A stretch of 47,006 nucleotides of DNA, taken from IMG/VR virus record IMGVR_UViG_2925903241_000004, one strand, 5' to 3'. The DNA is from a virus (Duplodnaviria; Heunggongvirae; Uroviricota; Caudoviricetes). Shown here in pieces: positions 1,419 through 16,202 of the stretch. The notes below the pieces were generated by a model. It was not told the DNA's origin, did not search any database, and saw only the letters and a program-made list of their open reading frames with translations. The stretch's first letter is position 1. The number at the start of each line of letters is the position of its first letter. The translations under genes and the position numbers were made by a program.

Positions 1419-3860
1419 TTAAAAATCAGCCTGACTCGGGATCAGTTTTTGCCAGATAACTGAAACGTATTTTGCCTGGTAACGGGCGTCATCAAGTGCA
1501 TTATGGCGCTCACCTTCGAATGGAATAGCCGTTCTGGCATCGAAGTCTATGGCTTTCCCCAGCTCAACGATTGTGCGTACATCGCGATCGTTGTAGTAAC
1601 GCCACGGGCAGGGGATCCCCTGCCGTTCGTATGAACGGCGCAAAATCGTGTTGTCGAAGTTGGCTCCATTTCCCCAGACCTGAACAAAAAATTCACCGGA
1701 GTTTTCGTCGATAAATTCCCGCAATTGTAACAGTGCATCATCTAACGGGATTTCATCGGTCATAATGGCAGATTGCGCTTCGCGTGATTGCTTAAGCCAC
1801 CATTTAATGGTGTCCCGATCAATGACTCCGCCAGCAGTTTCCAGATCGATAGTCTTACTAAATTCCGGTCCCATATCTCCGGTTTGCGGATCGAAAAATA
1901 TTGCACCTATTGAGATGATCGGGGCATCAGGATTTTTTCCCATGGTTTCAAGGTCGATCATTAGATGGTCACACGTCCTGCTGGTGGATGTGATTTCTTG
2001 ATGACCGTTCACCTTAATTGAGTGATCTGCCGTCTCGCCAGTTTCATTATCGCTATCGTGATGCTGATTGCCGCCAGTGTTCTCCTTGTGTGGATGTTCA
2101 GCGCCTTCCATTTCCTCCGGATCATCTTCCTGAACTTCAACCTGATACTCTTCATCGAATGTTTCCTGGTATGTTGCGTCGCCCATCACCGCGCCACAAT
2201 CAGGGCAGTTGCCGCCGCCGGTCTGACCGCAGGCGGTGCAGACTTTTTCCACTTCCTGTTGCGCCACTGGTTCGGATTGTTTCGTTTCTGGCTCGTTTTG
2301 TAACGCATTTGGGCTGTTTTGTTCCGCTTTTTGGTCGTTCCGTTCCGATTCATGCTGGTTCTGGTTCACAGAATCGCGAGTCTGGATCCCTTTGACCCAT
2401 TTCGGATCATTAGGGTCGCTAATCCCCTCAACAAATTCACCACGCGATACAGCAAGTAACTTATCGGCGTCAGGCTGGCTGATATTGGCTGCCTGCATAA
2501 TTTTGTTTACTTCGTCAGCGGTGACTTTTACTTGGTTAGCGGAACTCACCTGCGACTGAGCATCCAGCGACTGCGCGTTCTGGCCATGTTCAGTTGTATC
2601 CGGTTCCATTGTTTCAGTTGTTGCCTGTTCACCTGCCATTGCGTCAGATGGTTGTGGTTTTTCTTCTTCTGTTTCACGCTCAGTAACCACCTCGCGGTTA
2701 ATTTCTTCCAGGATATCTTTTTCCGGCGTATGCCGGGCAGCTGTGAGAGTTTCCTTGCTGGGGTTCTCGTGATCAGTTTCCGTCAAATAGGCGTTGATAT
2801 ACCCCTGAAGGCGTCCCGGGTAGTGATAAAATTCAGGGTGTGCGCTTCGGATAAGTGCAAAAATAGCGGCGCGGGAATAGTCCAGAATACCCGGGGTTGC
2901 ACGAAGTGCTGCGGACCATTCTTTGAACGGACTTTCTTTGTTCAGGACTACTTCTTTTGCGCGACGATAAACGCTGCCCGGAATTTCATAAATATTAAAA
3001 TCCATCGGAAGTGTGGCTGCTGCAATCTCCACATCCAGTGTGTCGAGGGTGTGTACTAAATTCGGATTGCGATCGGTTTTGTTCCCACCGCCAGCATTAG
3101 CACCGGAAGCCGTGCGGGTGATGCGTGAAACACGATTTCCTTTCATCCACTCTTTTGTCAGCAGACCCCGATCAGTGTAGTCAGCGTCTAGGTATGCTTC
3201 GAAAAAAGCAGTTATTAGTCCCAGGTCTGAATTACCAGGATTAGGGAAAACTTTGTCAGTGTCACGAACCAGTTTGTGGAGGTCGCGAATCTCCAGCGAG
3301 TCGAGCAGACTGGTTTTATGCGAAATAGCCAGGGCAGTAACAGCCGGTAGTTCTTCAGCCCGTGCAATGTGTAATGCCTGGAGTTCGTCGCGTGAAACGT
3401 GCGTTACTGGTTTTTCGCTGCCGTGTTGAGCAAGCCAACGAATGGGCAGTTCCTGACCGGAGACAGGCAGAAGCATGCTCTCCTCAATCTCAGTCATGGC
3501 TTCGCCGTTGATGTTGGTATTGTCAGTGCTGGCTGGTTTGTCCTGAACAGAGGGGGAAGGGCCGATAAATGTCATTGTGATGCCATCTTTCCCGCCTTTT
3601 TCATAGCGGTTGCAGAATTCAGTATCAAACACGCCTTCTGGCGGAAGGTCGTCAACAACGGGCAAATTGACGCGGACGGGTTTTTTAAAGTCGTCTTCAT
3701 CATAATCGTTGTCATCCATTGCGGTAATGCAGCGGGAGATTGCAACAGATAATTTTTTTGCTGTAGTCCAGTAAAAACCACCTTTAATTCCTAGGCGTTT
3801 TCTTACTTTGTCATTTTTTGCTTCGCAATATAGTGCAAATTCTTCTTTATCAGTGCTCAT
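1419..3860 (-). CDS. Prophage exonuclease with C-terminal DnaQ-like 3'-5' exonuclease domain (YdfE-like position)
   Basis: 813-aa ORF; C-terminus shows DEDDh-type motifs ([25 protein letters not shown]); acidic low-complexity linker in the middle; N-terminal ~330 aa of unknown function. Confidence 0.8.
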
Positions 3861-3953: not shown

Positions 3954-4145
3954 TTAAAATCCTGCCGGGATTTCGTTATTATCCTGGTGAATAACTTTAT
4001 CGACCGGATAACAGTTGCCTGGAATTTTCTGTTCGGTTGCTGCTGCCATACATTCCTGCATTGTTCTGTGAACACTGACTGCAATATCAACTGGCTCTCC
4101 GGAAACAAGAAAAACCGTCAGAATAAGTGCAAATACTGGATTCAT
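3954..4145 (-). CDS. ydfD: YdfD-like small protein (Qin prophage lysis protein homolog)
   Basis: 63-aa ORF from internal ATG at 4145 with AGGATG-type RBS; ATGA start/stop overlap with the upstream DicB gene; hydrophobic N-terminus; length and position match ydfD of the dicB operon. Confidence 0.6.
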   Translation of the reverse strand: MNPVFALILTVFLVSGEPVDIAVSVHRTMQECMAAATEQKIPGNCYPVDKVIHQDNNEIPAGF

Positions 4146-4330
4146 TGTGCACATCCTTTTGGCATCAGACGTAAACGGGCCAGCATTGAAACAATGCATA
4201 CTTTATTTAATAACTCCCGTTCGTGTTTTCTTTTGTTAATGGCATCTTCAGTAAATACAGGATTACTGATAGTGACACCAATTTCAAAACAACCTTCAGA
4301 CGTATTAACGTTTGGTAATAACGTTTTCAT
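4142..4330 (-). CDS. dicB: Cell division inhibitor DicB
   Basis: 62-aa product MKTLLPNVNTSEGCFEIGVTISNPVFTEDAINKRK... closely matches my recollection of E. coli K-12 DicB; located just downstream of the DicF sequence as in the Qin dicB operon. Confidence 0.75.
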   Translation of the reverse strand: MKTLLPNVNTSEGCFEIGVTISNPVFTEDAINKRKHERELLNKVCIVSMLARLRLMPKGCAQ

Positions 4331-4499
4331 TATCGCGCCCTCAACAATGAGTTTTGTGATGCGGTGCCTGGTGCCTCCAGGTGACGTTAACCAGTTAACA
4401 ATTAACGCCGGATACAGAGAATCCACCCATAACACTGTTTTTGGTTTTAACTGTTCCGCGTGCGCTTAGCCGCATTCACCGCATCACAAAATTCACTTT

Positions 4500-4557
4500 A
4501 AAAAGGGCGGCAGAGCAGTCACGGAGTAAAACTGATACCGCCAAACGTCACCAGAAA
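4500..4557 (-). ncRNA. dicF: DicF small regulatory RNA (ftsZ-targeting sRNA)
   Basis: Reverse complement of 4500-4557 reads TTTCTGGTGACGTTTGGCGGTATCAGTTTTACTCCGTGACTGCTCTGCCGCCCTTTTT, matching the DicF sequence as I recall it, including its 3' hairpin and U-tract. Confidence 0.75.
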
Positions 4558-4898
4558 ATTGATAACAGAGGGCGTTGCAGTGGGGTTGTCACTTAAGCGT
4601 ATGGTCAACCTGACAACCCGGTGTCCTCAACGGGGGAAGGAATAACCCCGCCATACTTACCGCCGCGCCATTTCGCGGATTGCCACAACCGGAAGCGCAC
4701 GGTCGACGAAAATTTAACGACAGGCTATCTATGAACCAGCTACCTCGCCGTGCGCTTTCGCGTTATGGCCTGACTTTTCAGGGAAATATCCTTTCAGTAA
4801 ACTGTCAGTGCCGGATGCTCACCCGTGTCCGGCGCACGCACTCCACCTCACCCGTGGAGAACTCCTTAATTACCAACCTTAGCTTCGTTGGTTATCTA

Positions 4899-5117
4899 TT
4901 AACGCGGGTATGTAATCATTCTGGCAATGCTTAATGCCGCTGCTTTTTCCAGCCTGGTGATATCCTGCTCCAGAGCGGACAGATTTTCAGCCTGCTTAGC
5001 CCTGGCTTCATTGGCCCATTTCAAATCCTGCGCTGCATTAATTTTCTGGCGCATCCACTCATAAAGTTCATCATCGGTATAGTCTGGCGCGATGATGACG
5101 GGTTCTCGTTTCTGCAT
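4899..5117 (-). CDS. YdfC-like hypothetical protein
   Basis: 72-aa ORF with strong RBS (AAGGAG 6 nt upstream of ATG at 5117); position upstream of dicF/dicB matches ydfC of the dicB operon. Confidence 0.55.
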   Translation of the reverse strand: MQKREPVIIAPDYTDDELYEWMRQKINAAQDLKWANEARAKQAENLSALEQDITRLEKAAALSIARMITYPR

Positions 5118-5209
5118 GTCGGCTCCTTGTGGTTAGCGTTGCCTGCTTTTAACCACGTCAGGCGAGGTGGTATCCTCTGAGGGGTCTGTTACTCGAGAGG
5201 AAATTGGTT

Positions 5210-5410
5210 ATGAATACAATCAAGTTTTCTTGCCCAGAATGTGGTGGCGAAGTCTTTGACACATCCTTTAAACCGCAGGGCTCTGACAGTTTCGCGGGAG
5301 CCATCTGCAAAAATTGTGGTCACCTTGTAACTGAAGATGAGTCCTCGCAGTTTGATGACGAAATCGTTGACAATATCTTCGGTGCACTCACCAGAGACTT
5401 TCTGAAGTAA
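5210..5410 (+). CDS. Small zinc-ribbon protein (CPECGG...CKNCGH)
   Basis: 66-aa ORF from ATG 5210 with two CxxC pairs about 20 residues apart; antisense to the surrounding dicB-operon direction; overlaps an open minus-strand frame (5189-5545), so strand assignment is uncertain. Confidence 0.4.
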   Translation: MNTIKFSCPECGGEVFDTSFKPQGSDSFAGAICKNCGHLVTEDESSQFDDEIVDNIFGALTRDFLK

Positions 5411-5841
5411 AGGCGCATACCGCTTAGTTACCGCTCTGATAATTCTTACCTGTCCGGCAATGGCGCTGATATCAATATAAAGCGCCATCGCTGTTTCTTT
5501 GCTGATCCCTGGACGCCTTCCATTCTGATGTTTGACTTCGCCCACTGAGAAATCCTCTGTTTCCCCTTAACGCCGGGGTAGCGGAACAAAAACCTGCTGC
5601 ATAGTTATTAAAGTTGAACCCTGCCGTCATGTTCTTACGCCTCGGGCTGGCTACTTAACCCCTGACCACTGCCTGGTAACTCGAAGTATTGCCCTGCATT
5701 CTGTAGGATGGGGTGAGGGAATGAATGAAGTTTAGAAAAACGAACTTTTCAGGTCAATGTTTTTTTATCAAAACATTTTAAGCAGGCAGCTGTTAAGCCA
5801 TCACCACGATGGCATACAGTTAATCAAATAGATGAGGTTGG

Positions 5842-6480
5842 TTAAATATCTTGTTGAATTTTAAAGCATACGCCCAATATGCAAGATAGATCATCCAGCA
5901 TAATTGAAGGGTAGCGAGGATTCGTGGGGACTAAAAGAATATCCGGCCCTTCTATCTCCAGTTTACGAATGACAGGTGTTGTGGTCCCTTTGGGTAAGGC
6001 AAGGACAATATTTCCTGGTTGTACGGTTCGATCGGGATCAACAAAAACTGTTGAACCATTTGGGATGGAAACTCCCCCACCAGATGTTGACATACTGTCA
6101 CTCTCTAGAACAACTGCAAAGGTATTGACCGGGATTTCTCCGACAAGCTGCACACAAGAGGTTATTGAGGAATTTTTCATATAATCACTCCAGCTTGCTG
6201 CCTGCTGAAGTGATAGTAGCGGAACCGTTTTTATCGGCGGTAAAGATAGATCAAGCGAATCACCTGTATTTAACTCTCCTCCATTAAGAAGCCAATTTTC
6301 GTTTACTTTCAATATTTTTGCCAGTGAACTTATGTAACGCGAGGACGGCGCTCCTCCACCGTTCATCCATTGACTTACGGAGCCTTTTGATGCGCCAGTG
6401 CCATTGACAAGGTCTTTGCCTTTCAGGTTTAGCGCATGCATACGTTGGGTTATGCGTTCAGATATAGTTTGCTTGCTCAT
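5842..6480 (-). CDS. CI-like repressor with N-terminal HTH and C-terminal S24 (LexA-like) peptidase domain
   Basis: 212-aa ORF; N-terminal helix-turn-helix-like region and C-terminal region resembling LexA/CI autopeptidase domains; divergent from the Cro-like gene; no Shine-Dalgarno before ATG 6480 (possibly leaderless, as lambda cI from pRM). Confidence 0.85.
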   Translation of the reverse strand: MSKQTISERITQRMHALNLKGKDLVNGTGASKGSVSQWMNGGGAPSSRYISSLAKILKVNENWLLNGGELNTGDSLDLSLPPIKTVPLLSLQQAASWSDYMKNSSITSCVQLVGEIPVNTFAVVLESDSMSTSGGGVSIPNGSTVFVDPDRTVQPGNIVLALPKGTTTPVIRKLEIEGPDILLVPTNPRYPSIMLDDLSCILGVCFKIQQDI

Positions 6481-6571
6481 GTTTTGATTTTAAAACACAG
6501 ATGGTTTTGTTTCTTGACTTTCTTTGGTTTTGATTATTAAACTTTTGACGTTCAGTTTTATGGAGCGACTC
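6481..6571. promoter_or_regulatory. Repressor/Cro intergenic operator-promoter region
   Basis: 91-bp AT-rich divergent intergenic region with four TTTTGA-containing repeats (ttttgatttt, ggttttgtttc, ggttttgatt, cttttgacg) and a TTGACT -35-like hexamer at 6513-6518. Confidence 0.5.
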
Positions 6572-6814
6572 ATGAAAAAATCAGAAGTATTAGGCTATTT
6601 TGGCGGAGTTGTTAAAACAGCCGCAGCTCTAGGAACGTCAAAAACCACAGTCAGCATGTGGGGGGAAGAGGTTCCGTGGAAATGGGCGTTGCTAATTCAG
6701 GCAGTCACTGCCGGGGCGCTCAAATATGAGTTACACATACCGACGGTTGTCATTCCCGGTTCTGATCATAATCCGCCTTCTAACCAAGGGGGGATTCATG
6801 AAAATCAAGCATGA
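6572..6814 (+). CDS. Cro/DicC-like DNA-binding protein (YdaS-like)
   Basis: 80-aa ORF from ATG 6572 with GGAG RBS; MKKSEVLGYFGGVVKTAAALGTSKTTVSMW resembles small Cro/YdaS-family HTH proteins; divergent from the repressor. Confidence 0.7.
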   Translation: MKKSEVLGYFGGVVKTAAALGTSKTTVSMWGEEVPWKWALLIQAVTAGALKYELHIPTVVIPGSDHNPPSNQGGIHENQA

Positions 6815-7223
6815 ACACATCCGCATGGCGATGAATGCCTGGGCGCATCCGGACGGCGAAAAAGTACCGGCTGCGAAAATTACCAAAGCGTATTTCGAGC
6901 TGGGAATGACGTTCCCGGAACTGTATGACGACAGCCATCCGGAAGCCCTGGCTCGCAATACCCAGAAAATTTTCCGCTGGGTGGAGAAAGACACCCCTGA
7001 TGCAGTTGAAAAAATTCAGGCGTTGTTACCAGCGATCGAAAAGGCAATGCCACCTTTGCTGGTGGCCAGAATGCGCAGCCACAGTTCAGCTTATTTTCGG
7101 GAGTTGGTGGAGACGCGGGAGCGACTGGTGAGAGACGCTGATGATTTTGTCGCAGTGGCAATCGCCGGTTTCAATCAGATGAACCGTGGTGGCCCGGCAG
7201 GAAATGCTGTGGCAGTACATTGA
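6798..7223 (+). CDS. YdaT/CII-like regulatory protein
   Basis: 141-aa ORF from ATG 6798 (RBS AAGGGGGG); MKIKHEHI... N-terminus and position after Cro resemble YdaT-family prophage regulators. Confidence 0.5.
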   Translation: MKIKHEHIRMAMNAWAHPDGEKVPAAKITKAYFELGMTFPELYDDSHPEALARNTQKIFRWVEKDTPDAVEKIQALLPAIEKAMPPLLVARMRSHSSAYFRELVETRERLVRDADDFVAVAIAGFNQMNRGGPAGNAVAVH

Positions 7224-7294
7224 CTGACAATAGTCATATCGAATCGCTTCCGGCAACTCGTGAGTAAAAAGATTCGGTATCAGAAGAGGTGAGT

Positions 7295-8365
7295 ATGGCT
7301 AACGCCTGGCTCAGATTATGGCATGACATGCCAAATGACCCTAAGTGGCGAACAATTGCCAGGGTGTCAGGGCAGCCAATTGCAACAGTGATGGCAGTGT
7401 ATATCCACCTCCTGGTGAGCGCGTCACGAAATGTCACGCGAGGTCACATTGATGTCACGACAGAAGATTTGGCAAGTGCGCTCGACGTGACAGAAGAGGT
7501 AATTGATTCAATTTTGCAGACGATGCAGGGGCGGGTACTTGATGGTGATTTAATCACTGGATGGGAAAAACGCCAGGTGCTGAAAGAGGACAACGGCAAT
7601 ATTTCGCAAACCGCAAAATCTCCGGCAGAGCGCAAGAGGGCGCAGCGAGAGAGGGAAAGAAAGCGGGAACAAAATGGCGATTGTCACGGCGAGTCACGAA
7701 ATGTCACGCACATGTCACGACGAGTCACGACAGATAAAGATACAGATAAAGATACAGATCAAGAAGATCAAAACACTATGGTCCATGGCGTAAAAAACGC
7801 CACGAACCAGGCAGGGGATGTTCAGACCGTCACTCCTGGCCAGCCCGCAGGCACGACACCGGAAGCCGATTCAGCGTATGCGCTGAAAGCCGATTCGGGC
7901 GCTGTGCAGCAGGTGATGACCGCAAGGCAGGAGCAATCACACCAACTTCAGCAGCCTGAAGCCGATTCCGCCATTCAGCGGGAAGCCGATCGGGTAGTCC
8001 CGGAAAACACCGGGCAGCCTGTGGGACGAGTGGATTATCCTGATGTGTTCGAACAGGTCTGGCGGGAATACCCGTTGCGTGCCGGGGCAAACCCGAAGAA
8101 ATCCGCTTTCAGTGCCTGGAAAGCCAGATTACGCGAGGGGGTGCCACCAGAGGCCATGCTGGATGGCGTGAGGCGTTACGCAAGATACCTTGCGGCTACC
8201 GGGAAAACGGGAACGGAATTTGTTCAGCGAGCGACGACGTTTTTTGGACCGGACCGGAATTTTGAAAACCCCTGGCTGCTCCCGGTAAGCGGCACGAACA
8301 ACCAGCGTTGTGTGAATCATATTTCTGAACCGGATAACGAAATTCCGCCGGGCTTCAGGGGGTAA
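7295..8365 (+). CDS. Phage replication initiation protein (O-like), contains internal origin iterons
   Basis: 356-aa ORF from ATG 7295 (GAGG RBS); conserved N-terminal region common to lambdoid replication initiators; iterons and an AT-rich tract lie inside the coding sequence, as ori-lambda lies inside O. Confidence 0.6.
   Translation: MANAWLRLWHDMPNDPKWRTIARVSGQPIATVMAVYIHLLVSASRNVTRGHIDVTTEDLASALDVTEEVIDSILQTMQGRVLDGDLITGWEKRQVLKEDNGNISQTAKSPAERKRAQRERERKREQNGDCHGESRNVTHMSRRVTTDKDTDKDTDQEDQNTMVHGVKNATNQAGDVQTVTPGQPAGTTPEADSAYALKADSGAVQQVMTARQEQSHQLQQPEADSAIQREADRVVPENTGQPVGRVDYPDVFEQVWREYPLRAGANPKKSAFSAWKARLREGVPPEAMLDGVRRYARYLAATGKTGTEFVQRATTFFGPDRNFENPWLLPVSGTNNQRCVNHISEPDNEIPPGFRG
7423..7463 (+). 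repeat. Origin iteron set 1 (4 x GTCACR at ~10-bp phasing)
   Basis: GTCACG at 7423 and 7433, GTCACA at 7443, GTCACG at 7454; helically phased direct repeats inside the replication gene. Confidence 0.6.
7683..7780 (+). repeat. Origin iteron set 2 (5 x GTCACG at ~10-bp phasing) plus adjacent AT-rich tandem repeat
   Basis: GTCACG at 7683, 7693, 7703, 7714, 7724, followed by tandem acagataaagat x2 and an A/T-rich stretch (7731-7780) that could act as a DNA-unwinding element. Confidence 0.6.
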
Positions 8366-8405
8366 GTGTTAATTTCTGGTCATGAGGTAATTTTCAGGAG
8401 GGCTT

Positions 8406-8828
8406 GTGGCAAAAGTTTTTACACAAGAAGAGCGGGAAAAAATTAAAGGACAGGTTCTTGAACTCGTACGCCAGAGTGGGCGCGAGACGTTACGACAACT
8501 GGAAGCTAAAACTGGGGCAACAAGATATCTGATGAGCGTTCTGGCCAGAGAGCTGGTTGCCAGTGGCGATGTATACAATTCTGGCTACGGGTTATTCCCG
8601 TCTGAACAGGCTCGTAAAGACTGGCAAAATGCCCGCAAAAAATTATCGAGGGCAAAGCTGAAGAAACCGGTTGTGGTTGATCCGGACCTTATCTGGTCGT
8701 TACCTGACGGAGAAATACGTCGCTACGACAGTCGCCTAAACATAATCTGTCGCGAGTGCCGGAAGAGTGAAGCTATGCAGCGTGTACTGGCTTTCTATCA
8801 GGGTAATTTTCAGGAGGCGGTACTGTGA
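8406..8828 (+). CDS. Hypothetical early-region protein
   Basis: 140-aa ORF with GTG start preceded by AGGAGG; no recognisable family from sequence alone. Confidence 0.5.
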   Translation: MAKVFTQEEREKIKGQVLELVRQSGRETLRQLEAKTGATRYLMSVLARELVASGDVYNSGYGLFPSEQARKDWQNARKKLSRAKLKKPVVVDPDLIWSLPDGEIRRYDSRLNIICRECRKSEAMQRVLAFYQGNFQEAVL

Positions 8829-8885
8829 GTGAAATTAGCTATCAGGCTTCAATTACCGCTGGCATTCGCATCAAAGGAGAGGAGC

Positions 8886-9242
8886 ATGGAAATAAAACCA
8901 GAGGATGAGTTAAGCAATATCGTTTTATTTCCGGTAAAAGAGGATGACCCTCGTAATCAGGTTAATTTTCTTTATGAGCCATCGGAAAGACCATATTGTC
9001 ATCACGCCTCTGTCCGGGTTGACGAAAAAGAGCGTCAGGTCCGCTGTAAAATCTGCGGTGCAGTTGTGGAGCCATTTGACTGGATGCTCTCTGTGGCGAA
9101 AAGAGAAACCAGACTGGCAGATGATGTAAGGCTCTTGCGTCAGGAGGAGCGGGAAAGGCGAAAAAATATAGAAAAGCTAATTCAGATTGAGCGTAACGCG
9201 AAAGCGCGGATACGCAGGGCGACAAAATCCAGAACTGAATAA
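8886..9242 (+). CDS. Hypothetical protein with CxxC...CxxC motif and basic C-terminal helix
   Basis: 118-aa ORF from ATG 8886 with AGGAGAGGAG RBS; CHH...CKICG cysteine/histidine cluster; Arg/Glu-rich C-terminus. Confidence 0.5.
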   Translation: MEIKPEDELSNIVLFPVKEDDPRNQVNFLYEPSERPYCHHASVRVDEKERQVRCKICGAVVEPFDWMLSVAKRETRLADDVRLLRQEERERRKNIEKLIQIERNAKARIRRATKSRTE

Positions 9243-9335
9243 TTAAATTTAGCTCTGTTAAAAATTTAATCCTTAACCGGAGGGATTTCTGCACCCTCAG
9301 AACATCAGGAGGCCGCCCGAAAGGGCGGTAGTTAA

Positions 9336-9518
9336 ATGCGAAAGTTTAAAATAATTATTGAAACGGGAATAGCCGGTGGAGATTTCGAGGATGAATTCGA
9401 AGTGGATGATGATGCGACGCCTGATGAAATACATGACGAAGCAAAAGATATTTTCTTTAACTACTGCAATTACTCATATCACGAAATAAAAGACGAAGAG
9501 GAAGAACAAAATGGCTGA
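9336..9518 (+). CDS. Small highly acidic protein
   Basis: 60-aa ORF, very rich in Asp/Glu (EDEFEVDDDATPDEIHDE...DEEEEQNG); a stem-loop (ggccgcccgaaagggcgg) lies between an AGGAGG and the ATG. Confidence 0.45.
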   Translation: MRKFKIIIETGIAGGDFEDEFEVDDDATPDEIHDEAKDIFFNYCNYSYHEIKDEEEEQNG

Positions 9519-9687
9519 TTTTGGTTCAACTAAATACAACGTCAGTTTTGAAGAATGGCATGAACTGTTAATGGACTATGCAGAGTTACGTGGTGGCAGT
9601 GCTGCTGATGCTGAAGCATGGCGTGATGATTATGAAGCAGGAAAAACTCCGGTCGAAGCATATTGTGATGAGTGGGGCGATGAATGA
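9511..9687 (+). CDS. Small acidic protein
   Basis: 58-aa ORF found by eye (below the track's length cutoff): MADFGSTKYNVSFEEWHELLMDYAELRGGSAADAEAWRDDYEAGKTPVEAYCDEWGDE; AGAGGAAG RBS; start overlaps the previous stop. Confidence 0.4.
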   Translation: MADFGSTKYNVSFEEWHELLMDYAELRGGSAADAEAWRDDYEAGKTPVEAYCDEWGDE

Positions 9688-9885
9688 GCGAGGTTAATTA
9701 TCAGGAAGGGCATGAAACGGCGGGGCAAGCAAAAACAGTGGCATGGCGATATCGCTACGTGAAAAAAAAGGCGTTACGGACTTTCAGGAGAAGTAGTGGT
9801 TGCGTATTACCGTGAAGGAGATCGGTGAGTAACATCGATGGAGATCGGTTCGTGTCACTTTCACAGAACCGTTTTTAAATTACCT

Positions 9886-10635
9886 TCACTGATCTCCTTC
9901 GGTCAACGGAGATTGTATTTTCCGCATTGATTCTCCTTTAAGTTCGATCTTGATACTGCCATGAACCAGTCGATCTAGGATGGCATCCGCATGTGTGGAG
10001 TCTCCGATCATTTTGTACCAGTTTTCCACCGGCAACTGGCTCACTACGATGATTGAGCCTCGTTGGTACATCAGATCCACTATTTCCAGCAGGTCGCTAC
10101 GCTGTTCTGATGAGAGAGGTTCCAGCCCCCAGTCATCCAGAAGCAGCAGATCGCTATTATTCAGCCTGGTCAAAAGTTTGCTGTATCTTCCATCAGCATG
10201 CCCCTGATAGCACTGTTCCATCAGCGCTTTAAGGCGATAATAGTAGACCTTGTATCCCTGTCGGCAGGCATTATGACCAAGTGCACATGCCAGGAACGTT
10301 TTACCGCTGCCGGTGGCCCCGGTCAGTAAAATATTTTGTTTCAGGGTTAACCAGTTTCCCTGACTGAGTGAACGGATGAGGGCCCTGTCCAGCCCTCTAT
10401 TGTTACGATAATCCAGCTTTGATAACTCAGCATTAAGTCTGAACCGTGCATGTTTGATCAGACGCTCTGCCTTCCTGTTTTCACGGCAGGTTAGTTCTTC
10501 TGCTGTCAGTAATGACAGGCGTTCTTCGAAGCCCAGCTCCTGGTATGTGCCCGGTTGAGCAAGTTGCTTTTTAAGCGCATCACGGAAGCCGGTGAGTTTA
10601 AGTGCGGTCAGTTGTTCGTAAAGATGATTCATCAT
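9886..10635 (-). CDS. istB: IS21-family helper ATPase IstB
   Basis: 249-aa ORF with Walker A (GATGSGKT) and DnaC/IstB-like layout; immediately downstream of istA. Confidence 0.9.
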   Translation of the reverse strand: MMNHLYEQLTALKLTGFRDALKKQLAQPGTYQELGFEERLSLLTAEELTCRENRKAERLIKHARFRLNAELSKLDYRNNRGLDRALIRSLSQGNWLTLKQNILLTGATGSGKTFLACALGHNACRQGYKVYYYRLKALMEQCYQGHADGRYSKLLTRLNNSDLLLLDDWGLEPLSSEQRSDLLEIVDLMYQRGSIIVVSQLPVENWYKMIGDSTHADAILDRLVHGSIKIELKGESMRKIQSPLTEGDQ

Positions 10636-10646
10636 TGGATCCCGTA

Positions 10647-12188
10647 TCAGTGGTAATACTCACTGCCGCGTACGTTTTCGTGTTCCATCGTGGATAACAG
10701 ATCTGGTTTTGGATCCTGAACAGGTTGTTTATCCAGACCTTTTTCCAGGATCGATTTAATACCTGACAGACGCCATACCTTTGTTTCCAGAGCTCTTGCA
10801 CATGCTGCATTAAGTCTGGCTTTACTGTATTTTTTATGAAGGTTCAGGAGTCCAAGGCAGAAGCGATAGCTTTGTTCCGGATGTGGACGAGAGTTCAGTA
10901 TATGAAGCACATAACTATGAGTTTCACTGCCTATGTGCCCCGCCCATTCCAGAAGACGCTCTGGCGTCCAGGTGGCATGCTGTCGATGAGCTTCAGGCAT
11001 GTGCTCGTTGCGGGTACTGTAGCCATAAGTACGCTTGCGCGGGTGCACAGCAACCTCCTGCCCCTGATTGAAGAGTCTTACCAGTTCTCCGGAGATCCAT
11101 GCTTCCAGTTGCTGGCCTAACAGCGAACATGGAACCGAGTAGTAATGTTTGTCGATTTCCACGTGGTAATCGGCATGAACTCTGACTTTCTTCACCAGGG
11201 TGTAACTGTAACTGGCTTCAGGAAGAGGCTTCAGTGCGGGTTTATCAAGCTGGATGAAGAGTTCTGCACGTGAATAACCCAACTTCTGCATTATTTTGTT
11301 ATTCAGTCTTTCCAGCAACTCCCGAATGCGCTGATTAAGCGATGCAAGGCTGTAGAAGATCTCATGCCTGATTCGGGCCATGATCCAGCGTTCAACAACC
11401 TGAACGCCAACTTCAGCTTTGGCTTTATCTTTCGGTTTACGTGGCCGCGCAGGCAAAACTGCGACATTATAATGCTCAAGCATCTGCTGGTAGGTAGGGT
11501 TAACGTCAGGATCATACTTACATGCCCTGGATGTGGCGCTTTTCAGATTGTCCGGAACAACAAGTTCAGGAACGCCACCCAACCACTGGAAGCAGCGAAC
11601 ATGACTCATCACCCAGTCTTCAAGCTGCTGAGACCAGGTGGCCTCTGCCCATGTGTAACTTGATGCCCCGAGAACAGCTACGATGACCTGAGCAGTTCTT
11701 ATTTCTCCGGTCTCAGGGTCGGTAACGCCAACGGTAGGTCCACAGTAATCAACGAAAAGTTTTTCGCCAGCTTTATGTACCTGACGCATTGATGGTGAAG
11801 TGGTTTTGAGCCATTCACGGTACATCCGGCAGTAATGGTTATAGCTGTAAAAACCGCCTGGATTACGCTCACAGTATTCTTCCCAGAGTAGCTGCAGCGT
11901 CACGCATTTATTACGCAGTTCCCGGTGTACTGTAGCCCAGTCAGGCAGAGAGTGCTTCTTCATCTTAACCTGGGTCTGAAGGAACGCATGTTTTAGTTTT
12001 GTATCATCCCATCCTGTAGGTAAGGGCCACTGCTTTATGCCAAGTTGAGCCGCCCGATTAGCATATCTGGATACAACGGAAGGGGAGATTGCAAGACTAC
12101 GACCAATTTGTCGATGGCTGAGTCCAACACCGTATTTAAGCCTAAGAATTTCTTTAAGTTTTCTCATAGAAATTGGAACTGTTGGCAT
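10647..12188 (-). CDS. istA: IS21-family transposase IstA
   Basis: 513-aa ORF with N-terminal HTH and DDE integrase-core-like region; paired with istB as in IS21-family elements. Confidence 0.9.
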   Translation of the reverse strand: MPTVPISMRKLKEILRLKYGVGLSHRQIGRSLAISPSVVSRYANRAAQLGIKQWPLPTGWDDTKLKHAFLQTQVKMKKHSLPDWATVHRELRNKCVTLQLLWEEYCERNPGGFYSYNHYCRMYREWLKTTSPSMRQVHKAGEKLFVDYCGPTVGVTDPETGEIRTAQVIVAVLGASSYTWAEATWSQQLEDWVMSHVRCFQWLGGVPELVVPDNLKSATSRACKYDPDVNPTYQQMLEHYNVAVLPARPRKPKDKAKAEVGVQVVERWIMARIRHEIFYSLASLNQRIRELLERLNNKIMQKLGYSRAELFIQLDKPALKPLPEASYSYTLVKKVRVHADYHVEIDKHYYSVPCSLLGQQLEAWISGELVRLFNQGQEVAVHPRKRTYGYSTRNEHMPEAHRQHATWTPERLLEWAGHIGSETHSYVLHILNSRPHPEQSYRFCLGLLNLHKKYSKARLNAACARALETKVWRLSGIKSILEKGLDKQPVQDPKPDLLSTMEHENVRGSEYYH

Positions 12189-12759
12189 AGGTATCCTTTA
12201 CCGGAATGGCAAAAGATACAGATCAACACACCTGTGAAGTTCCAATAACATTGATGGAGATCACTGAATAACAAAATGAGTCAAAAGTGATCTCCATCGA
12301 TGTTATTCAGCGATCTGTTCAAATGTTATTACCCGATCTCGATGGAAGTTATTGAGTGATCTCCTTTCATGAAAATACGCAGTAGTGGTCTGGTGACTGG
12401 AAATATGTACCGAAAAAAGAGGATTGTAACGACAGGCCGAACTATGAAATTCAGGCCTTATTCACTGCCCCGCCAGTCCCGGTTACATCAGAAGAACTGG
12501 TTAAAGCTGTGCACTTTTATGAACAACTAAAACGCGAAAATCCACCAGCATCCGGAAACCTGATTACAGATTCCCAGATAAGGCAATGAGCTACCTGGCG
12601 CAGAACGGGCTGATAAGTATGGGGAATGTTTTACGATGAATATTTAGACTAAAGAGTTTGTAACGCTATGTAAGTGATTTTTTCTGGTTTAGATATTTAT
12701 ATGTTCGGCCAAATTGAGGTGTGTTTAAATGTAATTGCACATTGATTGTAGGAGGAATA

Positions 12760-12939
12760 ATGAAAAACGCATTGCAGTTTTTGTTTGTTGCGTTCTGGTT
12801 GTTCGTATCATGTATGCCCATCATCTTCACAGCAAGGTATATGGAAAAAGTTGATGTTTTGATATTAATATTTGGATATATAAATGCCCTTTTTTTAGGG
12901 GTGTTCATGGCGGTCATGTGCATTGAATACTGGCGGTAA
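12760..12939 (+). CDS. Small membrane protein (two predicted TM helices) in AT-rich moron
   Basis: 59-aa ORF from ATG 12760 with AGGAGG RBS; strongly hydrophobic; local GC clearly lower than the flanking prophage DNA. Confidence 0.45.
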   Translation: MKNALQFLFVAFWLFVSCMPIIFTARYMEKVDVLILIFGYINALFLGVFMAVMCIEYWR

Positions 12940-13198
12940 ATACAGCGAACGCCATTGGTTTAGTTGGATATTTACTGTGCCGGACAAAAACGGTTTGCGG
13001 GGAAATCTTAGTTAAGTAGAATGACTGCGGGTGCTTGAGGCTATCTGTCTCAGGCATGAACACCAAAAGGCAGATAGAGAAAAGCCCCAGTTAACATTAC
13101 GCGTCCTGCAAGACGCTTAACATTAATCTGAGGCTCAATCTATGAACGGCAAATCTAGGTTAGCCTCTTACGTGCCGAAAGGCAAGGAGAAGCAGGCT

Positions 13199-13354
13199 AT
13201 GAAGCAGCAAAAGGCGATGTTAATCGCCCTGATCGTCATCTGTTTAACCGTCATTGTGACGGCACTGGTAACGAGGAAAGACCTCTGCGAGGTACGAATC
13301 CGAACCGGCCAGACGGAGGTCGCTGTCTTCACAGCTTACGAACCTGAGGAGTAA
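13199..13354 (+). CDS. hok: Hok/Gef-family type I toxin (HokD/RelF-like)
   Basis: 51-aa product MKQQKAMLIALIVICLTVIVTALVTRKDLCEVRIRTGQTEVAVFTAYEPEE matches the Hok family; AGGAGA RBS; an in-frame upstream extension (from 13142) is open. Confidence 0.85.
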   Translation: MKQQKAMLIALIVICLTVIVTALVTRKDLCEVRIRTGQTEVAVFTAYEPEE

Positions 13355-13521
13355 GAGACCTGGCGGGGGAGAAATCCCTCGCCACCTCTGATGTGTCAGG
13401 CATCCTCAACGCACCCGCACGTAACCCGCTTCGGCGGGTTTTGTTTTTTCCTGGCATTCTGGTTTACAATTCGCACGCCAGCCTGAACAACTGGCACCTG
13501 CTGCGCCAGCAGAGACAACCG

Positions 13522-13800
13522 ATGGCGCACGATACCAAATTACACAATTCTAATGATTCTGCCGTCTTTGCCAGTAGGTGCGGACGGCGTTTTCACGCAT
13601 TCAAATCAGACTGGTTCCAGCATCCTCCATGCACTGAAGAGCAGGCGGAATGGATAATTCAGTGTTACCGCAGGCGCGGATACGAGGTTAAGAAAGCTCT
13701 TAGCCTCGACTACCGTCACTGGATAATCTCAGTCAGACTCCCTTACTCCGAACGCCCACCGCGTTCATCCCGCACATACCAGCAACGGATCTGGAGGTAA
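13522..13800 (+). CDS. Hypothetical protein (Rem-like position between hok and DUF968)
   Basis: ORF open from 13393; first ATG at 13522 gives 92 aa; start codon uncertain (no clear RBS); gene order hok - small gene - DUF968 - Q mirrors Qin hokD-rem-ydfU-quuQ. Confidence 0.4.
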   Translation: MAHDTKLHNSNDSAVFASRCGRRFHAFKSDWFQHPPCTEEQAEWIIQCYRRRGYEVKKALSLDYRHWIISVRLPYSERPPRSSRTYQQRIWR

Positions 13801-13801
13801 C

Positions 13802-14860
13802 GTGCGGATATTACTTCGACCTGTTCTGGTACCGGAACTCGGGCTGGTGGTCCTTAGGCCGGGCCGTGAATCCATGCAAGTATTTCATAACCCTCGAGTG
13901 CTGGTGGAGCCTGAACCGAAAAGCATGCGCGGTCTGCCGTCCGGAGTCGTCCCTGCCGTTCGCCAGCCGCTGGCGGAGGATAAATCATTACTGCCATTTT
14001 TCAGCGATGATCGGGTGATTCGTGCTGCTGGCGGCGCTGGGGCACTGTCTGACTGGCTGTTGCGTCATGTCAAATCCTGCCAGTGGCCTCATGGTGACTA
14101 TCATCACAGTGAAACCGTCATTCACCGTTACGGTACCGGCGCGATGGTGTTGTGCTGGCACTGTGACAACCAGTTGCGGGACCAGACATCAGAATCACTC
14201 GGGCAACTTGCTCATCAAAACTTGTCAGCATGGATGATTGACGTCATCCGTCACGCAATCAGCGGTACGCAGGAGAGGGAGTTATCGCTGGCCGAATTAT
14301 CCTGGTGGGCGGTCTGCAATCAGGTGGCTGATGCGCTTCCGGAGTCTGTATTGTGTCGTTCACTGGGATTACCGGTGGAAAAAATCCGCTCCGTATACCG
14401 TGAGAGTGACATCGTACCGGGAGAACAGACTGCCACCAGCATACTGAAGCAGCGCACAAAAAATATTGCGCTGCCACTTCACGTCCACCAGCAACAGCCC
14501 CCACTCCAGGAAAAGACGTTAGTAAGCATCGCCGTTGATCCGGAGTCTCCGGTTCAGTATCTCCAGCGCCAGAAACCACAACGGGAAGAGATGCCTGTAT
14601 ACACGCGCTGGGTAAAAACGCAGAAATGCATGACGTGCGGTAATCAGGCAGATGATCCGCATCACATCATTGGTCATGGCCTGGGAGGTATGGGAACAAA
14701 GGCTGATGATTTGTTTGTTATTCCGCTGTGCCGTAAATGTCATAACGAACTGCACGCCGGGGTAAAAGATTTTGAAGAAAAACACGGCAGCCAGCTGTTG
14801 TTGCTGATTCGTTTTTTAATGCACGCGAGAAATTCGGGTGTCCTGAAGTGGAAAGCATGA
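13802..14860 (+). CDS. DUF968-family prophage protein (YdfU-like) with C-terminal HNH-like Cys/His motif
   Basis: 352-aa ORF with GTG start overlapping the previous stop; C-terminal CMTCG...PHHIIGHG...CRKCHNELH resembles an HNH/zinc-binding motif. Confidence 0.7.
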   Translation: MRILLRPVLVPELGLVVLRPGRESMQVFHNPRVLVEPEPKSMRGLPSGVVPAVRQPLAEDKSLLPFFSDDRVIRAAGGAGALSDWLLRHVKSCQWPHGDYHHSETVIHRYGTGAMVLCWHCDNQLRDQTSESLGQLAHQNLSAWMIDVIRHAISGTQERELSLAELSWWAVCNQVADALPESVLCRSLGLPVEKIRSVYRESDIVPGEQTATSILKQRTKNIALPLHVHQQQPPLQEKTLVSIAVDPESPVQYLQRQKPQREEMPVYTRWVKTQKCMTCGNQADDPHHIIGHGLGGMGTKADDLFVIPLCRKCHNELHAGVKDFEEKHGSQLLLLIRFLMHARNSGVLKWKA

Positions 14861-16059: not shown

Positions 16060-16065
16060 CAAGGT

Positions 16066-16094
16066 TGATTTTTCCGGAATCTGTGGTAAATTCG
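16066..16094 (+). promoter_or_regulatory. Putative late promoter pR' (TTGATT-16-TAAATT)
   Basis: -35 TTGATT at 16066-16071 and -10 TAAATT at 16088-16093 immediately downstream of Q; lambda pR' also uses a TAAATT -10 as I recall. Confidence 0.4.
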
Positions 16095-16141
16095 TCATAA
16101 TAATGGGCTTTTTATGCCTGACGTTAGAAGAGTTTCTACAA

Positions 16142-16170
16142 CCCGCCGCCGAGCGGGTTTTTTATTGCGG
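16142..16170 (+). terminator. Putative tR'-like intrinsic terminator
   Basis: CCCGC-loop-GCGGG hairpin followed by TTTTTTATT, about 50 nt downstream of the putative pR'. Confidence 0.5.
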
Positions 16171-16202
16171 AATTAATTACGGACCGTTATTATTCTACTC
16201 CC

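What the first reader, a model, noticed from the sequence alone, without database searches (positions are those of the whole stretch)
7423..7780. Replication origin embedded in the O-like gene: two phased GTCACG iteron arrays plus an AT-rich tandem repeat
Nine GTCAC(G/A) hexamers in two clusters at about 10-bp spacing lie inside the replication initiator ORF, followed by an A/T-rich stretch (acagataaagat x2) that encodes an Asp/Lys/Thr linker. This mirrors ori-lambda inside gene O and suggests the encoded protein binds its own coding sequence. No P or DnaC-like helicase loader was recognised downstream.
Basis: partly seen in the sequence, partly recalled or inferred. Interest (0 to 1): 0.45.

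Follow-up and report, generated by a model that had tools for sequence, protein, structure and literature searches.

The report
Prophage replication origin inside its initiator gene
The repeats are real and are almost certainly the replication origin of a very common E. coli prophage, written into the coding sequence of the phage's own initiator gene; the layout is a familiar one (as in phage lambda), but this family has not been studied and it encodes no helicase loader.

Summary
Nine direct GTCAC(G/A) hexamers, in groups of 4 and 5 at 10-11 bp spacing, plus one inverted copy lie at 7423-7729. An A/T-rich, purine-biased tract follows at 7730-7778. All of this sits inside a 356-aa initiator gene (7295-8365).

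The pattern is neither chance nor a codon or peptide repeat:
- Ten hits fall in 312 bp where 0.2 are expected.
- The hexamers occupy all three reading frames.
- Third-codon positions inside them are 98% conserved, against 55% elsewhere, across 22 orthologues.

Of 51 loci from beta-, gamma- and alpha-proteobacteria that encode the same N-terminal domain, 42 keep both arrays and nearly all of those keep the AGATAAAGAT tract. The core changes in step in both arrays (GTCACG, GTAACG or CGAACG).

The N-domain is predicted to be a DnaD-like winged helix. Array 2 and the AT tract fall in a disordered linker, as ori-lambda does in gene O. No helicase loader is encoded. The protein ends in the C-terminal tail of host DnaT.

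The origin reading is supported by comparison, not by experiment. Which part of the protein reads the hexamers is unresolved, because the same arrays occur in genes with a non-homologous N-domain (DUF6291). The cassette is present in 37% of complete E. coli genomes. I rate it a new variant of a known kind, of moderate interest.

The parts
7295..8365 (+). Initiator ('phage replisome organizer') gene, 356 aa. It has an N-terminal winged-helix domain, a long disordered linker, a C-terminal helical domain and a DnaT-like tail.
   Evidence: phrog_3729 'replication initiation protein', E 7e-257; no Pfam family. 100% identical to the 'DNA replication protein O' gene of phage vB_EcoS-640R1 and 98.5% to that of the infectious phage Tritos (PMC9928086). 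AlphaFold2 domain layout.
7295..7585 (+). Coding region of the N-terminal DnaD-like winged-helix domain (aa 1-97): helices 56-63 and 67-77, wing 78-88.
7423..7459 (+). Array 1: four direct hexamers (7423, 7433, 7443, 7454) spaced 10, 10 and 11 bp. It encodes the surface loop aa 43-55 of the winged-helix domain.
   Evidence: Kept at the same gene position in 42 of 51 related loci. Third-codon positions are 0.983 conserved against 0.548 elsewhere, P = 1.4e-5. The loop has lower pLDDT and varies in length in 21-bp (7-codon) steps.
7486..7491 (-). Single inverted copy (CGTGAC on the + strand), encoding D-V-T at the start of helix 67-77.
   Evidence: Present at the same position (+191) in most class-I orthologues; third-position conservation 0.82.
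7613..7672 (+). Purine-rich DNA encoding a basic helix (aa 107-126, AKSPAERKRAQRERERKREQ) just upstream of array 2.
   Evidence: AF2 predicts a helix at 110-126. Apart from the iteron-encoded residues, this is the only region with class-specific residues. A basic segment precedes such arrays in 51-80% of IMG/VR cases, against 12% of control positions.
7683..7729 (+). Array 2: five direct GTCACG hexamers (7683, 7693, 7703, 7714, 7724). It encodes aa 130-145 of the disordered linker and is the proposed core initiator-binding array.
   Evidence: Always has the same core as array 1 in every locus. It is the array retained when array 1 is absent (L043, and the DUF6291 genes).
7730..7778 (+). A/T-rich, purine-biased tract that includes ACAGATAAAGAT x2.9 (7730-7764). 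Proposed DNA-unwinding element; encodes TDKDTDKDTDQEDQN.
   Evidence: In the 42 array-bearing loci, the 45 bp after array 2 average GC 0.33 against a locus GC of 0.55, with purine fraction 0.71. An AGATAA-type motif is found within those 45 bp (usually 2-12 bp after the array) in 39 of 42, including hosts of 60-69% GC.
7779..7809 (.). Imperfect palindrome (13-nt arms, 5-nt loop) directly after the AT tract. Its role is unknown and it may not belong to the origin.
   Evidence: I11. Terminator-like on the minus strand. As single-stranded DNA it folds at -8.7 kcal/mol, z = -2.9. Conservation could not be tested.
8027..8290 (+). Coding region of the C-terminal helical domain (aa 245-332). It is shared with 'O'/'primosomal protein I' genes of SfV, Stx and other lambdoid phages that have different N-domains. 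Presumed host-replisome recruitment domain.
   Evidence: tblastn shows modular sharing. AF2 pLDDT is about 90. phrog_1701 'DnaD-like helicase loader', E 1e-61. No significant PDB match once the true DnaT-domain members are removed from the profile.
8297..8362 (+). C-terminal tail (aa 335-356, NNQRCVNHISEPDNEIPPGFRG) matching the C-terminal tail of host DnaT.
   Evidence: NCBIfam DnaT NF002770, positions 156-179 of 179, E 7e-4. phmmer against 6aep, 2ru8 and 9zbt. hhalign probability 95.6% with the tail and 3% without it. The same IPxGFRG ending occurs in the unrelated initiator of the loader-less phage LLS.
6514..6543 (+). pR-like promoter candidate upstream of the cro - cII/YdaT-like - rep operon, which would drive transcription through the origin.
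   Evidence: Consensus scan only, 9 of 12 matches and no enrichment over shuffles. Gene order CI(-)/Cro/YdaT-like/Rep.

Best explanation
The span 7423-7778 is the vegetative replication origin of this lambdoid prophage, written into the coding sequence of its own initiator gene.

Shown:
- Two helically phased arrays of a 6-bp core are under DNA-level selection.
- They co-occur with the initiator's N-terminal domain in 42 of 51 related loci.
- The core changes in step in both arrays.
- Array 2 is followed by a conserved AT-rich, purine-biased tract, and both lie in the disordered linker between two folded domains.

Inferred mechanism:
1. The initiator is made from the early rightward operon.
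2. Its DnaD-like winged-helix domain, possibly with the adjacent basic helix, binds the hexamers. Because these are 10-11 bp apart, the bound proteins line up on one face of the DNA and build a multimeric complex on array 2.
3. Strain from that complex, helped by transcription through the gene, opens the adjoining AT tract.
4. Array 1 lies 260 bp upstream (about 25 helical turns). It acts as an auxiliary or regulatory binding array, through looping, cooperativity or titration. Some distant relatives lack it.
5. The flexible linker presents the C-terminal domain and its DnaT-like tail to the host machinery. Since the phage encodes no loader or helicase, host DnaB must be delivered by host DnaC, possibly through the PriA/PriB/DnaT restart pathway or by mimicry of DnaT.
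For: - Clustering: P = 2.4e-14, and no simulation exceeded 5 hits in 312 bp.
- All three reading frames are used.
- In 22 class-I orthologues with mean nucleotide identity 0.70, third-codon positions are 0.983 conserved inside the hexamers and 0.548 outside, P = 1.4e-5.
- 42 of 51 loci with the N-domain, from hosts of 33-69% GC, keep both arrays at the same gene positions.
- There are three core classes, and both arrays of a gene always share the class. Within one enterobacterial subclade, six homologous copies in both arrays differ by the same C/A change.
- Spacing is 10 bp (105 cases) or 11 bp (31 cases), and the flanks carry almost no information.
- The AT tract after array 2 averages GC 0.33 against 0.55, and 39 of 42 loci carry the AGATAA motif.
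- Among the proteins tested (the initiator's N-domain and the window's five flanking genes), only the N-domain is present in all 52 loci.
- Homologues that share only the C-domain lack GTCACG arrays.
- The fold is a winged helix closest to DnaD-NTD and staphylococcal RepA, and the arrays map to a loop and to the linker.
- In the reverse direction, 93 of 120 CGAACG triple arrays in IMG/VR lie in initiator-type genes. They typically sit 100-155 aa into ORFs of about 300 aa, after a basic segment and before an AT-rich window.
- Copy number changes in 21-bp steps that preserve the frame, as the 4-versus-6 iteron difference does in lambda and Stx O genes (PMC7466680).
- Tritos, with a 98.5% identical gene and no loader, forms plaques on K-12 (PMC9928086).
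Against: - No experiment supports it: no binding, unwinding, plasmid-replication or marker-frequency data exist for this family in the searched literature.
- The same hexamer arrays occur in genes whose N-terminal domain is DUF6291, with no detectable similarity to this N-domain (hhalign probability 0.5%). The link between N-domain and hexamer is therefore not exclusive, and the part that reads the hexamers is uncertain.
- Within the folded N-domain, the only residues that separate the core classes are those encoded by the iterons themselves. The predicted recognition helix and wing do not change with core class.
- Nine of 51 distant homologues lack one or both arrays.
- The DnaT similarity is limited to about 22 residues. 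The tail also occurs in initiators that are followed by a phage DnaC, so it does not by itself explain the absence of a loader.
Confidence: 0.8

Rival explanations
1. The region is an origin, but the hexamers are not read by the winged-helix domain. They are read instead by the basic helix encoded just upstream of array 2, by the iteron-encoded peptide, or by a conserved host factor. The N-domain would then serve in oligomerisation or recruitment.
For: Identical CGAACG arrays at 10-bp spacing occur in 58 of 120 IMG/VR stretches inside DUF6291-type genes, which show no detectable homology to this N-domain. GTCACG arrays also occur behind several other N-domains. A basic segment precedes the arrays in 51-80% of cases, against 12% of controls. 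Class-specific residues lie only in the iteron-encoded loop and in the basic-helix region.
Against: Array 1 sits inside the N-domain coding region and is inherited with it. The basic helices of class III genes and of DUF6291 genes, which share a core, do not look alike. A single host factor is unlikely across alpha-, beta- and gamma-proteobacterial hosts and the likely different hosts of the gut phages. Small alignments may simply miss a remote homology between the two N-domains.
Confidence: 0.2
2. The arrays are operators rather than an origin. The protein, or another regulator, binds inside the gene to autoregulate or block early rightward transcription, and the true origin lies elsewhere.
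For: Initiator binding sites in iteron plasmids often double as autoregulatory sites (established knowledge). Array 1 lies early in the gene and is absent in some relatives. A weak promoter-like site overlaps array 2 on the minus strand.
Against: The constant pairing of array 2 with an AT-rich, purine-biased tract, even in hosts of 60-69% GC, is the signature of an unwinding element and not of an operator. No other hexamer cluster exists in the 47-kb window. The position in the interdomain linker matches mapped origins of lambda, Stx phages and SPP1 (PMC7466680, PMC6316719). The two roles do not exclude each other.
Confidence: 0.06
3. The arrays form a centromere-like or packaging-related site. 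Short repeats at 10-11 bp in two blocks resemble the parC-type centromeres of plasmids.
For: The geometry (two blocks of 10-11 bp direct repeats) recalls parC of plasmid R1; this is from memory and was not tested here.
Against: No partition ATPase or adaptor gene is nearby, and the element is an integrating prophage with integrase and excisionase. The arrays travel with replication-initiator genes in every family examined. Six of 2406 copies in E. coli genomes are on plasmids.
Confidence: 0.02
4. The repeats are a by-product of a repetitive peptide or of codon choice and have no function at the DNA level.
For: The arrays do encode recurring peptides (SRNVT appears twice), and the AT tract encodes a D/K/T low-complexity linker.
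Against: Successive copies are read in all three frames. Synonymous positions inside the hexamers are nearly invariant across genes only 70% identical. When the core changes, the peptide changes in every frame and in both arrays. GAT/AAA codons persist in hosts of 60-69% GC.
Confidence: 0.01

Closest known systems
ori-lambda within gene O of lambda and Stx phages
   Same: The origin lies in the middle of the initiator gene, in the segment linking the DNA-binding and recruitment domains. Phased initiator-binding repeats sit directly beside an AT-rich tract. The gene belongs to the pR operon. Repeat copy number varies between phages and adds residues to the protein (PMC7466680, PMC6022878).
   Different: There is no detectable homology to O; the Pfam Phage_rep_O family is not matched. 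The repeats are a 6-bp core every 10-11 bp, not 18-19 bp iterons (size from memory). A second array lies inside the DNA-binding domain's coding region. No P loader gene is present. The C-terminus carries a DnaT-like tail.
SPP1 replisome organizer gp38 and oriL
   Same: The initiator binds direct repeats located inside its own gene, next to an AT-rich unwinding element (PMC6316719). NCBI names the window protein 'phage replisome organizer'. The N-domain fold is closest to DnaD-type winged helices.
   Different: SPP1 encodes its own loader (gp39) and helicase (gp40) and has a second, distant origin, oriR. The sequence match to Pfam Phage_rep_org_N is below threshold (E 0.08 in 2 of 32 members).
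RepA_N-type plasmid initiators of staphylococci (structure 4pta)
   Different: They are Gram-positive plasmids with no sequence similarity to the window protein. The structural score is no better than for generic winged helices. The location of their origin was not checked here.
E. coli DnaT (primosomal protein I)
   Same: The last 22 or so residues are nearly the same: ISEPDNEIPPGFRG here, VSEPDSQIPPGFRG in DnaT. Sibling proteins with the same N-domain carry a true Pfam DnaT domain (PF17948).
   Different: The globular C-domain of the window protein is not significantly DnaT-like once those siblings are removed. There is no DnaT N-terminal domain. The function of the DnaT tail itself is not established in the papers read (PMC13377028, PMC4132743).
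Initiator of phage LLS and other loader-less lambdoid phages
   Same: The replication module is a single gene with no helicase or loader, a type described as 'not yet understood' (PMC12315714). LLS has repeats in the linker of the gene, and its protein ends in DTKIPEGFRG.
   Different: LLS has a different N-terminal HTH domain and different repeats of about 15 bp. BLASTP finds no similarity outside the tail.
DUF6291 (PF19808) phage proteins
   Same: They carry the same CGAACG core at 10-bp spacing in the linker, preceded by a basic helix and followed by an acidic, AT-rich low-complexity tract. Their C-termini are replication-type domains (DnaB_2, Phg_2220_C).
   Different: Their N-domain shows no detectable homology (hhalign probability 0.5%). 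They have one array, not two. Most come from human-gut-type viral contigs.

Membership tests
Iteron-type origin embedded in its initiator gene (functional class) | Several direct repeats in helical phase, in numbers beyond chance | tested here: met
   9 direct copies and 1 inverted copy at 10-11 bp; P = 2.4e-14. Across orthologues the spacing is 10 bp in 105 cases and 11 bp in 31.
Iteron-type origin embedded in its initiator gene (functional class) | AT-rich unwinding element directly next to the repeats | tested here: met
   7730-7778 has GC about 0.3. The tract is conserved in 39 of 42 loci, at GC 0.33 against a locus GC of 0.55. Actual unwinding was not tested.
Iteron-type origin embedded in its initiator gene (functional class) | Repeats are selected at the DNA level and co-vary with the initiator | tested here: met
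   Synonymous-site conservation is 0.983 against 0.548. The core switches in step in both arrays. Homologues that share only the C-domain lack the arrays.
Iteron-type origin embedded in its initiator gene (functional class) | The initiator binds the repeats and the fragment supports initiator-dependent replication | not testable with these tools
   This needs footprinting and a plasmid replication assay. No such data were found in the literature searches.
Lambda O / ori-lambda family | Initiator with the Phage_rep_O N-terminal domain (Pfam PF04492) | tested here: not met
   No Pfam hit at E <= 0.01 for the protein. The family is absent from the hits of all 32 aligned members at E <= 0.1.
Lambda O / ori-lambda family | Partner P-type helicase loader encoded immediately downstream | tested here: not met
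   The downstream ORFs are DUF977 and a zinc-ribbon protein. The identical phages 640R1 and Tritos also lack a loader. tblastn with phage DnaC and helicase probes finds only IS21 IstB.
Phage replisome organizer (SPP1 gp38 type, Pfam PF09681) | Sequence membership in Phage_rep_org_N | tested here: inconclusive
   PF09681 appears only at E 0.079 in 2 of 32 members, below the cut-off. PHROG 'replisome organizer' families match at E 7e-6 and 1e-4. NCBI names the cluster 'phage replisome organizer'.
Phage replisome organizer (SPP1 gp38 type, Pfam PF09681) | DnaD-like winged-helix N-terminal fold | tested here: met
DnaT (primosomal protein I) | C-terminal tail ...SEPDxxIPPGFRG | tested here: met
DnaT (primosomal protein I) | DnaT three-helix-bundle ssDNA-binding domain (Pfam PF17948) | tested here: inconclusive
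   The window protein has no PF17948 hit. The profile hit to DnaT (E 1.3e-7) disappears when the four true DnaT-domain members are removed (E 0.8). hhalign without the tail gives probability 3%.

The most novel reading that the evidence does not exclude
The origin and the protein's specificity may be written in the same bases. Within the folded N-domain, the only residues that differ between the GTCACG, GTAACG and CGAACG classes are those encoded by array 1 itself: the loop aa 46-51 and the cap of the putative recognition helix. The same hexamer cassette (basic helix, array, AT tract) also appears behind non-homologous N-domains. If the iteron-encoded peptide or the adjacent basic helix is what reads the hexamers, then a change in the iteron changes its own reader in cis. 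The cassette would then be a self-contained, transferable origin-plus-specificity module. Coupled to a DnaT-mimicking tail, it would let a one-gene module take over the host restart primosome.
Probability: 0.1. Interest if true: 0.75.

Novelty: new variant of a known kind. Interest (0 to 1): 0.45.

Why it matters
- **Prevalence.** The cassette is in 2035 of 5426 complete E. coli genomes. The gene there is often labelled 'hypothetical protein'; none of the phage records examined in detail annotates an origin. A defined signature (phased 6-bp cores followed by an AGATAAAGAT tract in the linker of an initiator gene) would allow origins to be annotated in many prophages of proteobacteria. A related form would serve for gut phages that carry DUF6291 genes.
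- **An open question becomes testable.** One-gene, loader-less replication modules of lambdoid phages were recently flagged as not understood (PMC12315714). The shared DnaT-like IPxGFRG tail, found here and in phage LLS, gives a concrete hypothesis for how host DnaB is recruited.
- **A natural test set.** The three core classes that switch in step offer ready-made material for studying how initiator specificity and origin sequence co-evolve when both are encoded in the same DNA.

Tried and rejected
- **Foldseek of the full model against PDB:** nothing significant, all E > 1.
- **Profile search of PDB with all 32 homologues:** it gave a DnaT hit across the whole C-domain. I rejected this as evidence for the window protein because it vanished when the four members with a true DnaT domain were removed and when the tail was left out.
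- **DnaA boxes:** none within 7200-8000 at up to 1 mismatch, and no enrichment in the window.
- **Promoter and terminator scans:** no enrichment over shuffles.
- **Literature:** searches on GTCACG, iteron, replisome organizer and DnaT-like found no description of this origin. The library lacks most subscription journals.
- **Homology between this N-domain and DUF6291:** none detected by hhalign.
- **Repeats in the C-domain-only homologue of Shigella phage 75/02 Stx:** no comparable array.
- **Specificity-determining residues:** only iteron-encoded and basic-helix positions separate the classes, and this is confounded by phylogeny.
- **Conservation of the 7779-7809 palindrome:** not testable with the loci in hand.
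- **Helicase-loader fold in ORFs 8406-9242:** only sequence searches were possible, with no hits.
- **IS21 IstB as a loader:** it belongs to an insertion that is absent from the otherwise identical phage 640R1.
Full report
**1. The observation**

- GTCAC(G/A) starts on the + strand at 7423, 7433, 7443 and 7454, and again at 7683, 7693, 7703, 7714 and 7724. One inverted copy lies at 7486-7491.
- The whole 47-kb window has no excess of the hexamer (40 found, 45.6 expected), but 10 of the 40 fall within 312 bp. The Poisson expectation there is 0.20 (P = 2.4e-14). In 300 Markov-1 simulations no 312-bp span held more than 5.
- Tandem Repeats Finder reports ACAGATAAAGAT x2.9 at 7730-7764.
- GC falls to 0.33 at 7720-7779, the minimum within the ORF, and the top strand is strongly purine- and A-rich.

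**2. The gene and its setting**

The repeats lie in a 356-aa ORF. Homologues start MAN..., so the likely start is the ATG at 7295; the ORF ends at 8365.
- Gene order is a CI-like repressor (5842-6480, minus strand), a P22-Cro-like gene, a YdaT/CII-like gene, this gene, a DUF977 gene (8406-8828) and a zinc-ribbon gene (8829-9242).
- The protein matches PHROG 3729 'replication initiation protein' over its full length (E 7e-257) but no Pfam family. NCBI calls the cluster 'phage replisome organizer'.
- The gene is 100% identical to that of phage vB_EcoS-640R1 and 98.5% identical to those of phages Evi and Tritos. Tritos forms plaques on E. coli K-12 (PMC9928086), so the module works.
- Window 4001-16500 is identical to 640R1 except for an IS21-family insertion at about 9801-12380.
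- Neither the window nor the intact phages encode a P, DnaC or DnaB gene next to the initiator. The only DnaC-like ORF in the window is IS21 IstB.

**3. Not a codon or peptide artefact**

- The nine direct hexamers begin at codon positions 3, 1, 2, 1 and 2, 3, 1, 3, 1. One DNA word is therefore read as S-R, V-T or x-H-x.
- In 22 orthologues with the GTCACG core (mean pairwise nucleotide identity 0.70), third-codon positions inside the four hexamers of array 1 are 0.983 conserved, against 0.548 at the other 83 third positions (Mann-Whitney P = 1.4e-5).
- The flanks of the core carry almost no information. The spacing is 10 bp (105 cases) or 11 bp (31 cases).

**4. Comparative evidence**

The protein is modular.
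- Residues 1-138 are about 70% identical to proteins of Pseudomonas phage phi1 and Aeromonas phage pAEv1818, whose C-termini differ.
- Residues 160-356 are shared with 'O'/'primosomal protein I' genes of SfV, Stx and other phages that have different N-termini.
- The two phages that share the N-domain keep both arrays and the AT tract. The Shigella Stx phage that shares only the C-domain has neither.

A scan of one genome per species found 52 loci with the N-domain, from gamma-, beta- and alpha-proteobacteria with GC 33-69%. Among 51 loci analysed (the window, phages phi1 and pAEv1818, and 48 of those genome loci):
- 42 keep two arrays at the same gene positions, about nt 128-160 and 350-480.
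- The cores fall into three classes: GTCACG (26 loci), GTAACG (5) and CGAACG (11). Both arrays of a gene always share the class.
- Within one enterobacterial subclade, six homologous copies across both arrays differ by the same C/A substitution between Erwinia and Pantoea/Enterobacter.
- The 45 bp after array 2 average GC 0.33 against a locus GC of 0.55. In 39 of 42 loci they contain an (C/T)AGATAAAGATA-type motif, usually beginning 2-12 bp after the array, even in hosts of 60-69% GC.
- Among the window's own flanking genes and the N-domain, only the N-domain is present in all 52 loci tested. The YdaT-like, Cro, CI, DUF977 and zinc-ribbon genes appear in 0-4 of the 52.
- Nine distant homologues lack array 1 or both arrays. 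Array 2 plus the AT tract is therefore the more general part.
- Within E. coli and its relatives, array size changes by 21 bp, which is two repeats or seven codons. This parallels the 4-versus-6 iteron difference of lambda and Stx O genes (PMC7466680).

**5. Structure**

AlphaFold2 predicts:
- a confident N-domain (aa 1-97) with helices 2-14, 16-25, 29-45, 56-63 and 67-77 and a beta wing at 78-88;
- a disordered linker (98-244) containing one basic helix (110-126);
- a confident helical C-domain (245-332);
- a C-terminal tail.

Array 1 encodes the loop 43-55. Array 2 encodes aa 130-145 and the AT tract aa 146-160, both in the linker.

**6. The missing loader and the DnaT-like tail**

- The last 22 or so residues (…ISEPDNEIPPGFRG) match the C-terminus of DnaT: NCBIfam E 7e-4, PDB entries 6aep, 2ru8 and 9zbt, and hhalign probability 95.6%.
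- A broader profile hit to the DnaT C-terminal domain was driven by four aligned members that carry a true Pfam DnaT domain. It disappears without them and without the tail. Only the tail can be claimed.
- The tail also ends the otherwise unrelated initiator of phage LLS. LLS is a one-gene, loader-less lambdoid module whose replication is described as 'not yet understood' (PMC12315714).
- The tail also occurs in initiators that are followed by a phage DnaC. It is therefore a plausible host-recruitment motif, not a proven substitute for a loader.
- In the host, the DnaT C-terminal domain docks on PriA and forms filaments on ssDNA. How DnaB/DnaC is then recruited is still unknown (PMC13377028).

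**7. Reverse test and an unresolved point**

I scanned IMG/VR for three CGAACG copies at 10-bp spacing, which returned 120 stretches.
- 35 lie in genes with this N-domain.
- 58 lie in genes whose N-terminus is Pfam DUF6291. These have a single array in the linker, after a basic helix and before an acidic AT-rich tract, and their C-termini are replication-type domains.
- 27 lie in neither.

Four GTCACG copies at 10-bp spacing gave 104 stretches. Of these, 55 lie in this family, and many of the rest sit behind other initiator-like N-domains. Such arrays typically lie 100-155 aa into ORFs of about 300 aa. A basic segment precedes them in 51-80% of cases against 12% of controls, and an AT-rich window follows.

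This strengthens the view that the arrays mark initiator-gene origins. DUF6291, however, shows no detectable similarity to this N-domain. In addition, the only class-specific residues in the N-domain are those the iterons themselves encode, plus the basic-helix region. Which part of the protein reads the hexamers is therefore open.

**8. Mechanism**

Shown:
- two phased arrays under DNA-level selection that evolve in step;
- an adjacent conserved AT tract;
- their placement in a loop and in the linker of a two-domain initiator;
- the absence of a phage-encoded loader.

Inferred:
1. The initiator multimerises on array 2.
2. This opens the AT tract, aided by transcription from the early promoter.
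3. Array 1, 260 bp upstream, assists or regulates.
4. The tethered C-domain and tail recruit host DnaB/DnaC, possibly by way of the restart primosome.

No DnaA box lies in the region.

**9. Comparison and novelty**

It works like ori-lambda in gene O and like SPP1 oriL in gene 38 (PMC7466680, PMC6316719). From memory, it also resembles the origins of RepA_N plasmids. It is not a member of the lambda O family: the Pfam domain and the P partner were both tested and not met. Membership of the SPP1-type Pfam family is inconclusive.

The features that differ from known cases are:
- 6-bp cores at helical spacing instead of 18-22 bp iterons;
- a second array inside the DNA-binding domain's coding sequence;
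- class switching in step in both arrays;
- a conserved AGATAAAGAT tract;
- a DnaT-like tail in a loader-less module.

I found no description of this origin in the searchable literature. The cassette is in 37% of complete E. coli genomes.

**10. Verdict**

- I rate it a new variant of a known kind, interest 0.45.
- Confidence that this is the origin is 0.8.
- Confidence that the DnaT-like tail recruits the host helicase machinery is about 0.35.

Noticed in passing
window 9801-12380: An IS21-family insertion (istA 10647-12188 and istB 9886-10635, both minus strand). Apart from it, window 4001-16500 is 100% identical to phage vB_EcoS-640R1, with up to 9 bp duplicated at the junctions. It interrupts a small hypothetical ORF about 1.4 kb downstream of the initiator gene. 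IstB is the only DnaC-like ORF in the window.
   Followed up: partly
window 7779-7809: An imperfect palindrome (13-nt arms) lies directly after the AT tract. As single-stranded DNA it folds at -8.7 kcal/mol (z = -2.9), and it looks like a terminator on the minus strand. It belongs to the C-terminal module, and its conservation could not be tested.
   Followed up: partly
L363 (phage LLS, PQ299149) 34213-35067: The loader-less lambdoid phage LLS has an unrelated HTH-type initiator. It carries its own repeats of about 15 bp (GAYGCNTCAAAAWC) in the linker and ends in DTKIPEGFRG, the same DnaT-like tail as the window protein.
   Followed up: partly
IMG/VR loci L139-L258, e.g. L144 7956-8627, L140 10116-11183: Genes with an N-terminal DUF6291 domain carry CGAACG arrays at 10-bp spacing in their linker, followed by DNDN/KDKD-coding AT-rich tracts and replication-type C-termini. 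DUF6291 may therefore be an unrecognised family of phage initiators with origins embedded in their genes.
   Followed up: partly
L001 (Pseudomonas phage phi1, KT887557) 2501-3400; L003 (PACT201): The orthologous initiator gene, with both arrays, is not annotated in the phi1 record. The PACT201 record shows several frameshifts in the same gene, probably sequencing errors.
   Followed up: no
L048 and L056, about nt 3300-3400 of each locus: Two Serratia/Pantoea homologues join the N-domain to a different middle part. That part has ACTACGTA-type repeats and a segment (…VGISRNPWAR…) that was not identified, and it lacks the GATAAAGAT tract.
   Followed up: no
window 7400-7800, against complete E. 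coli genomes: The cassette occurs in 2035 of 5426 complete E. coli genomes, with up to 4 copies per genome; 6 of the 2406 copies are on plasmids. The gene is annotated variously as hypothetical protein, phage replisome organizer or DnaT-like ssDNA-binding domain protein.
   Followed up: partly
window 7423-7729: With a helical repeat of 10.4 bp, all nine direct copies in both arrays (260 bp apart) are in phase (resultant length 0.985). A 10.0-bp repeat fits nearly as well (0.957), so this does not decide whether the arrays loop together.
   Followed up: partly
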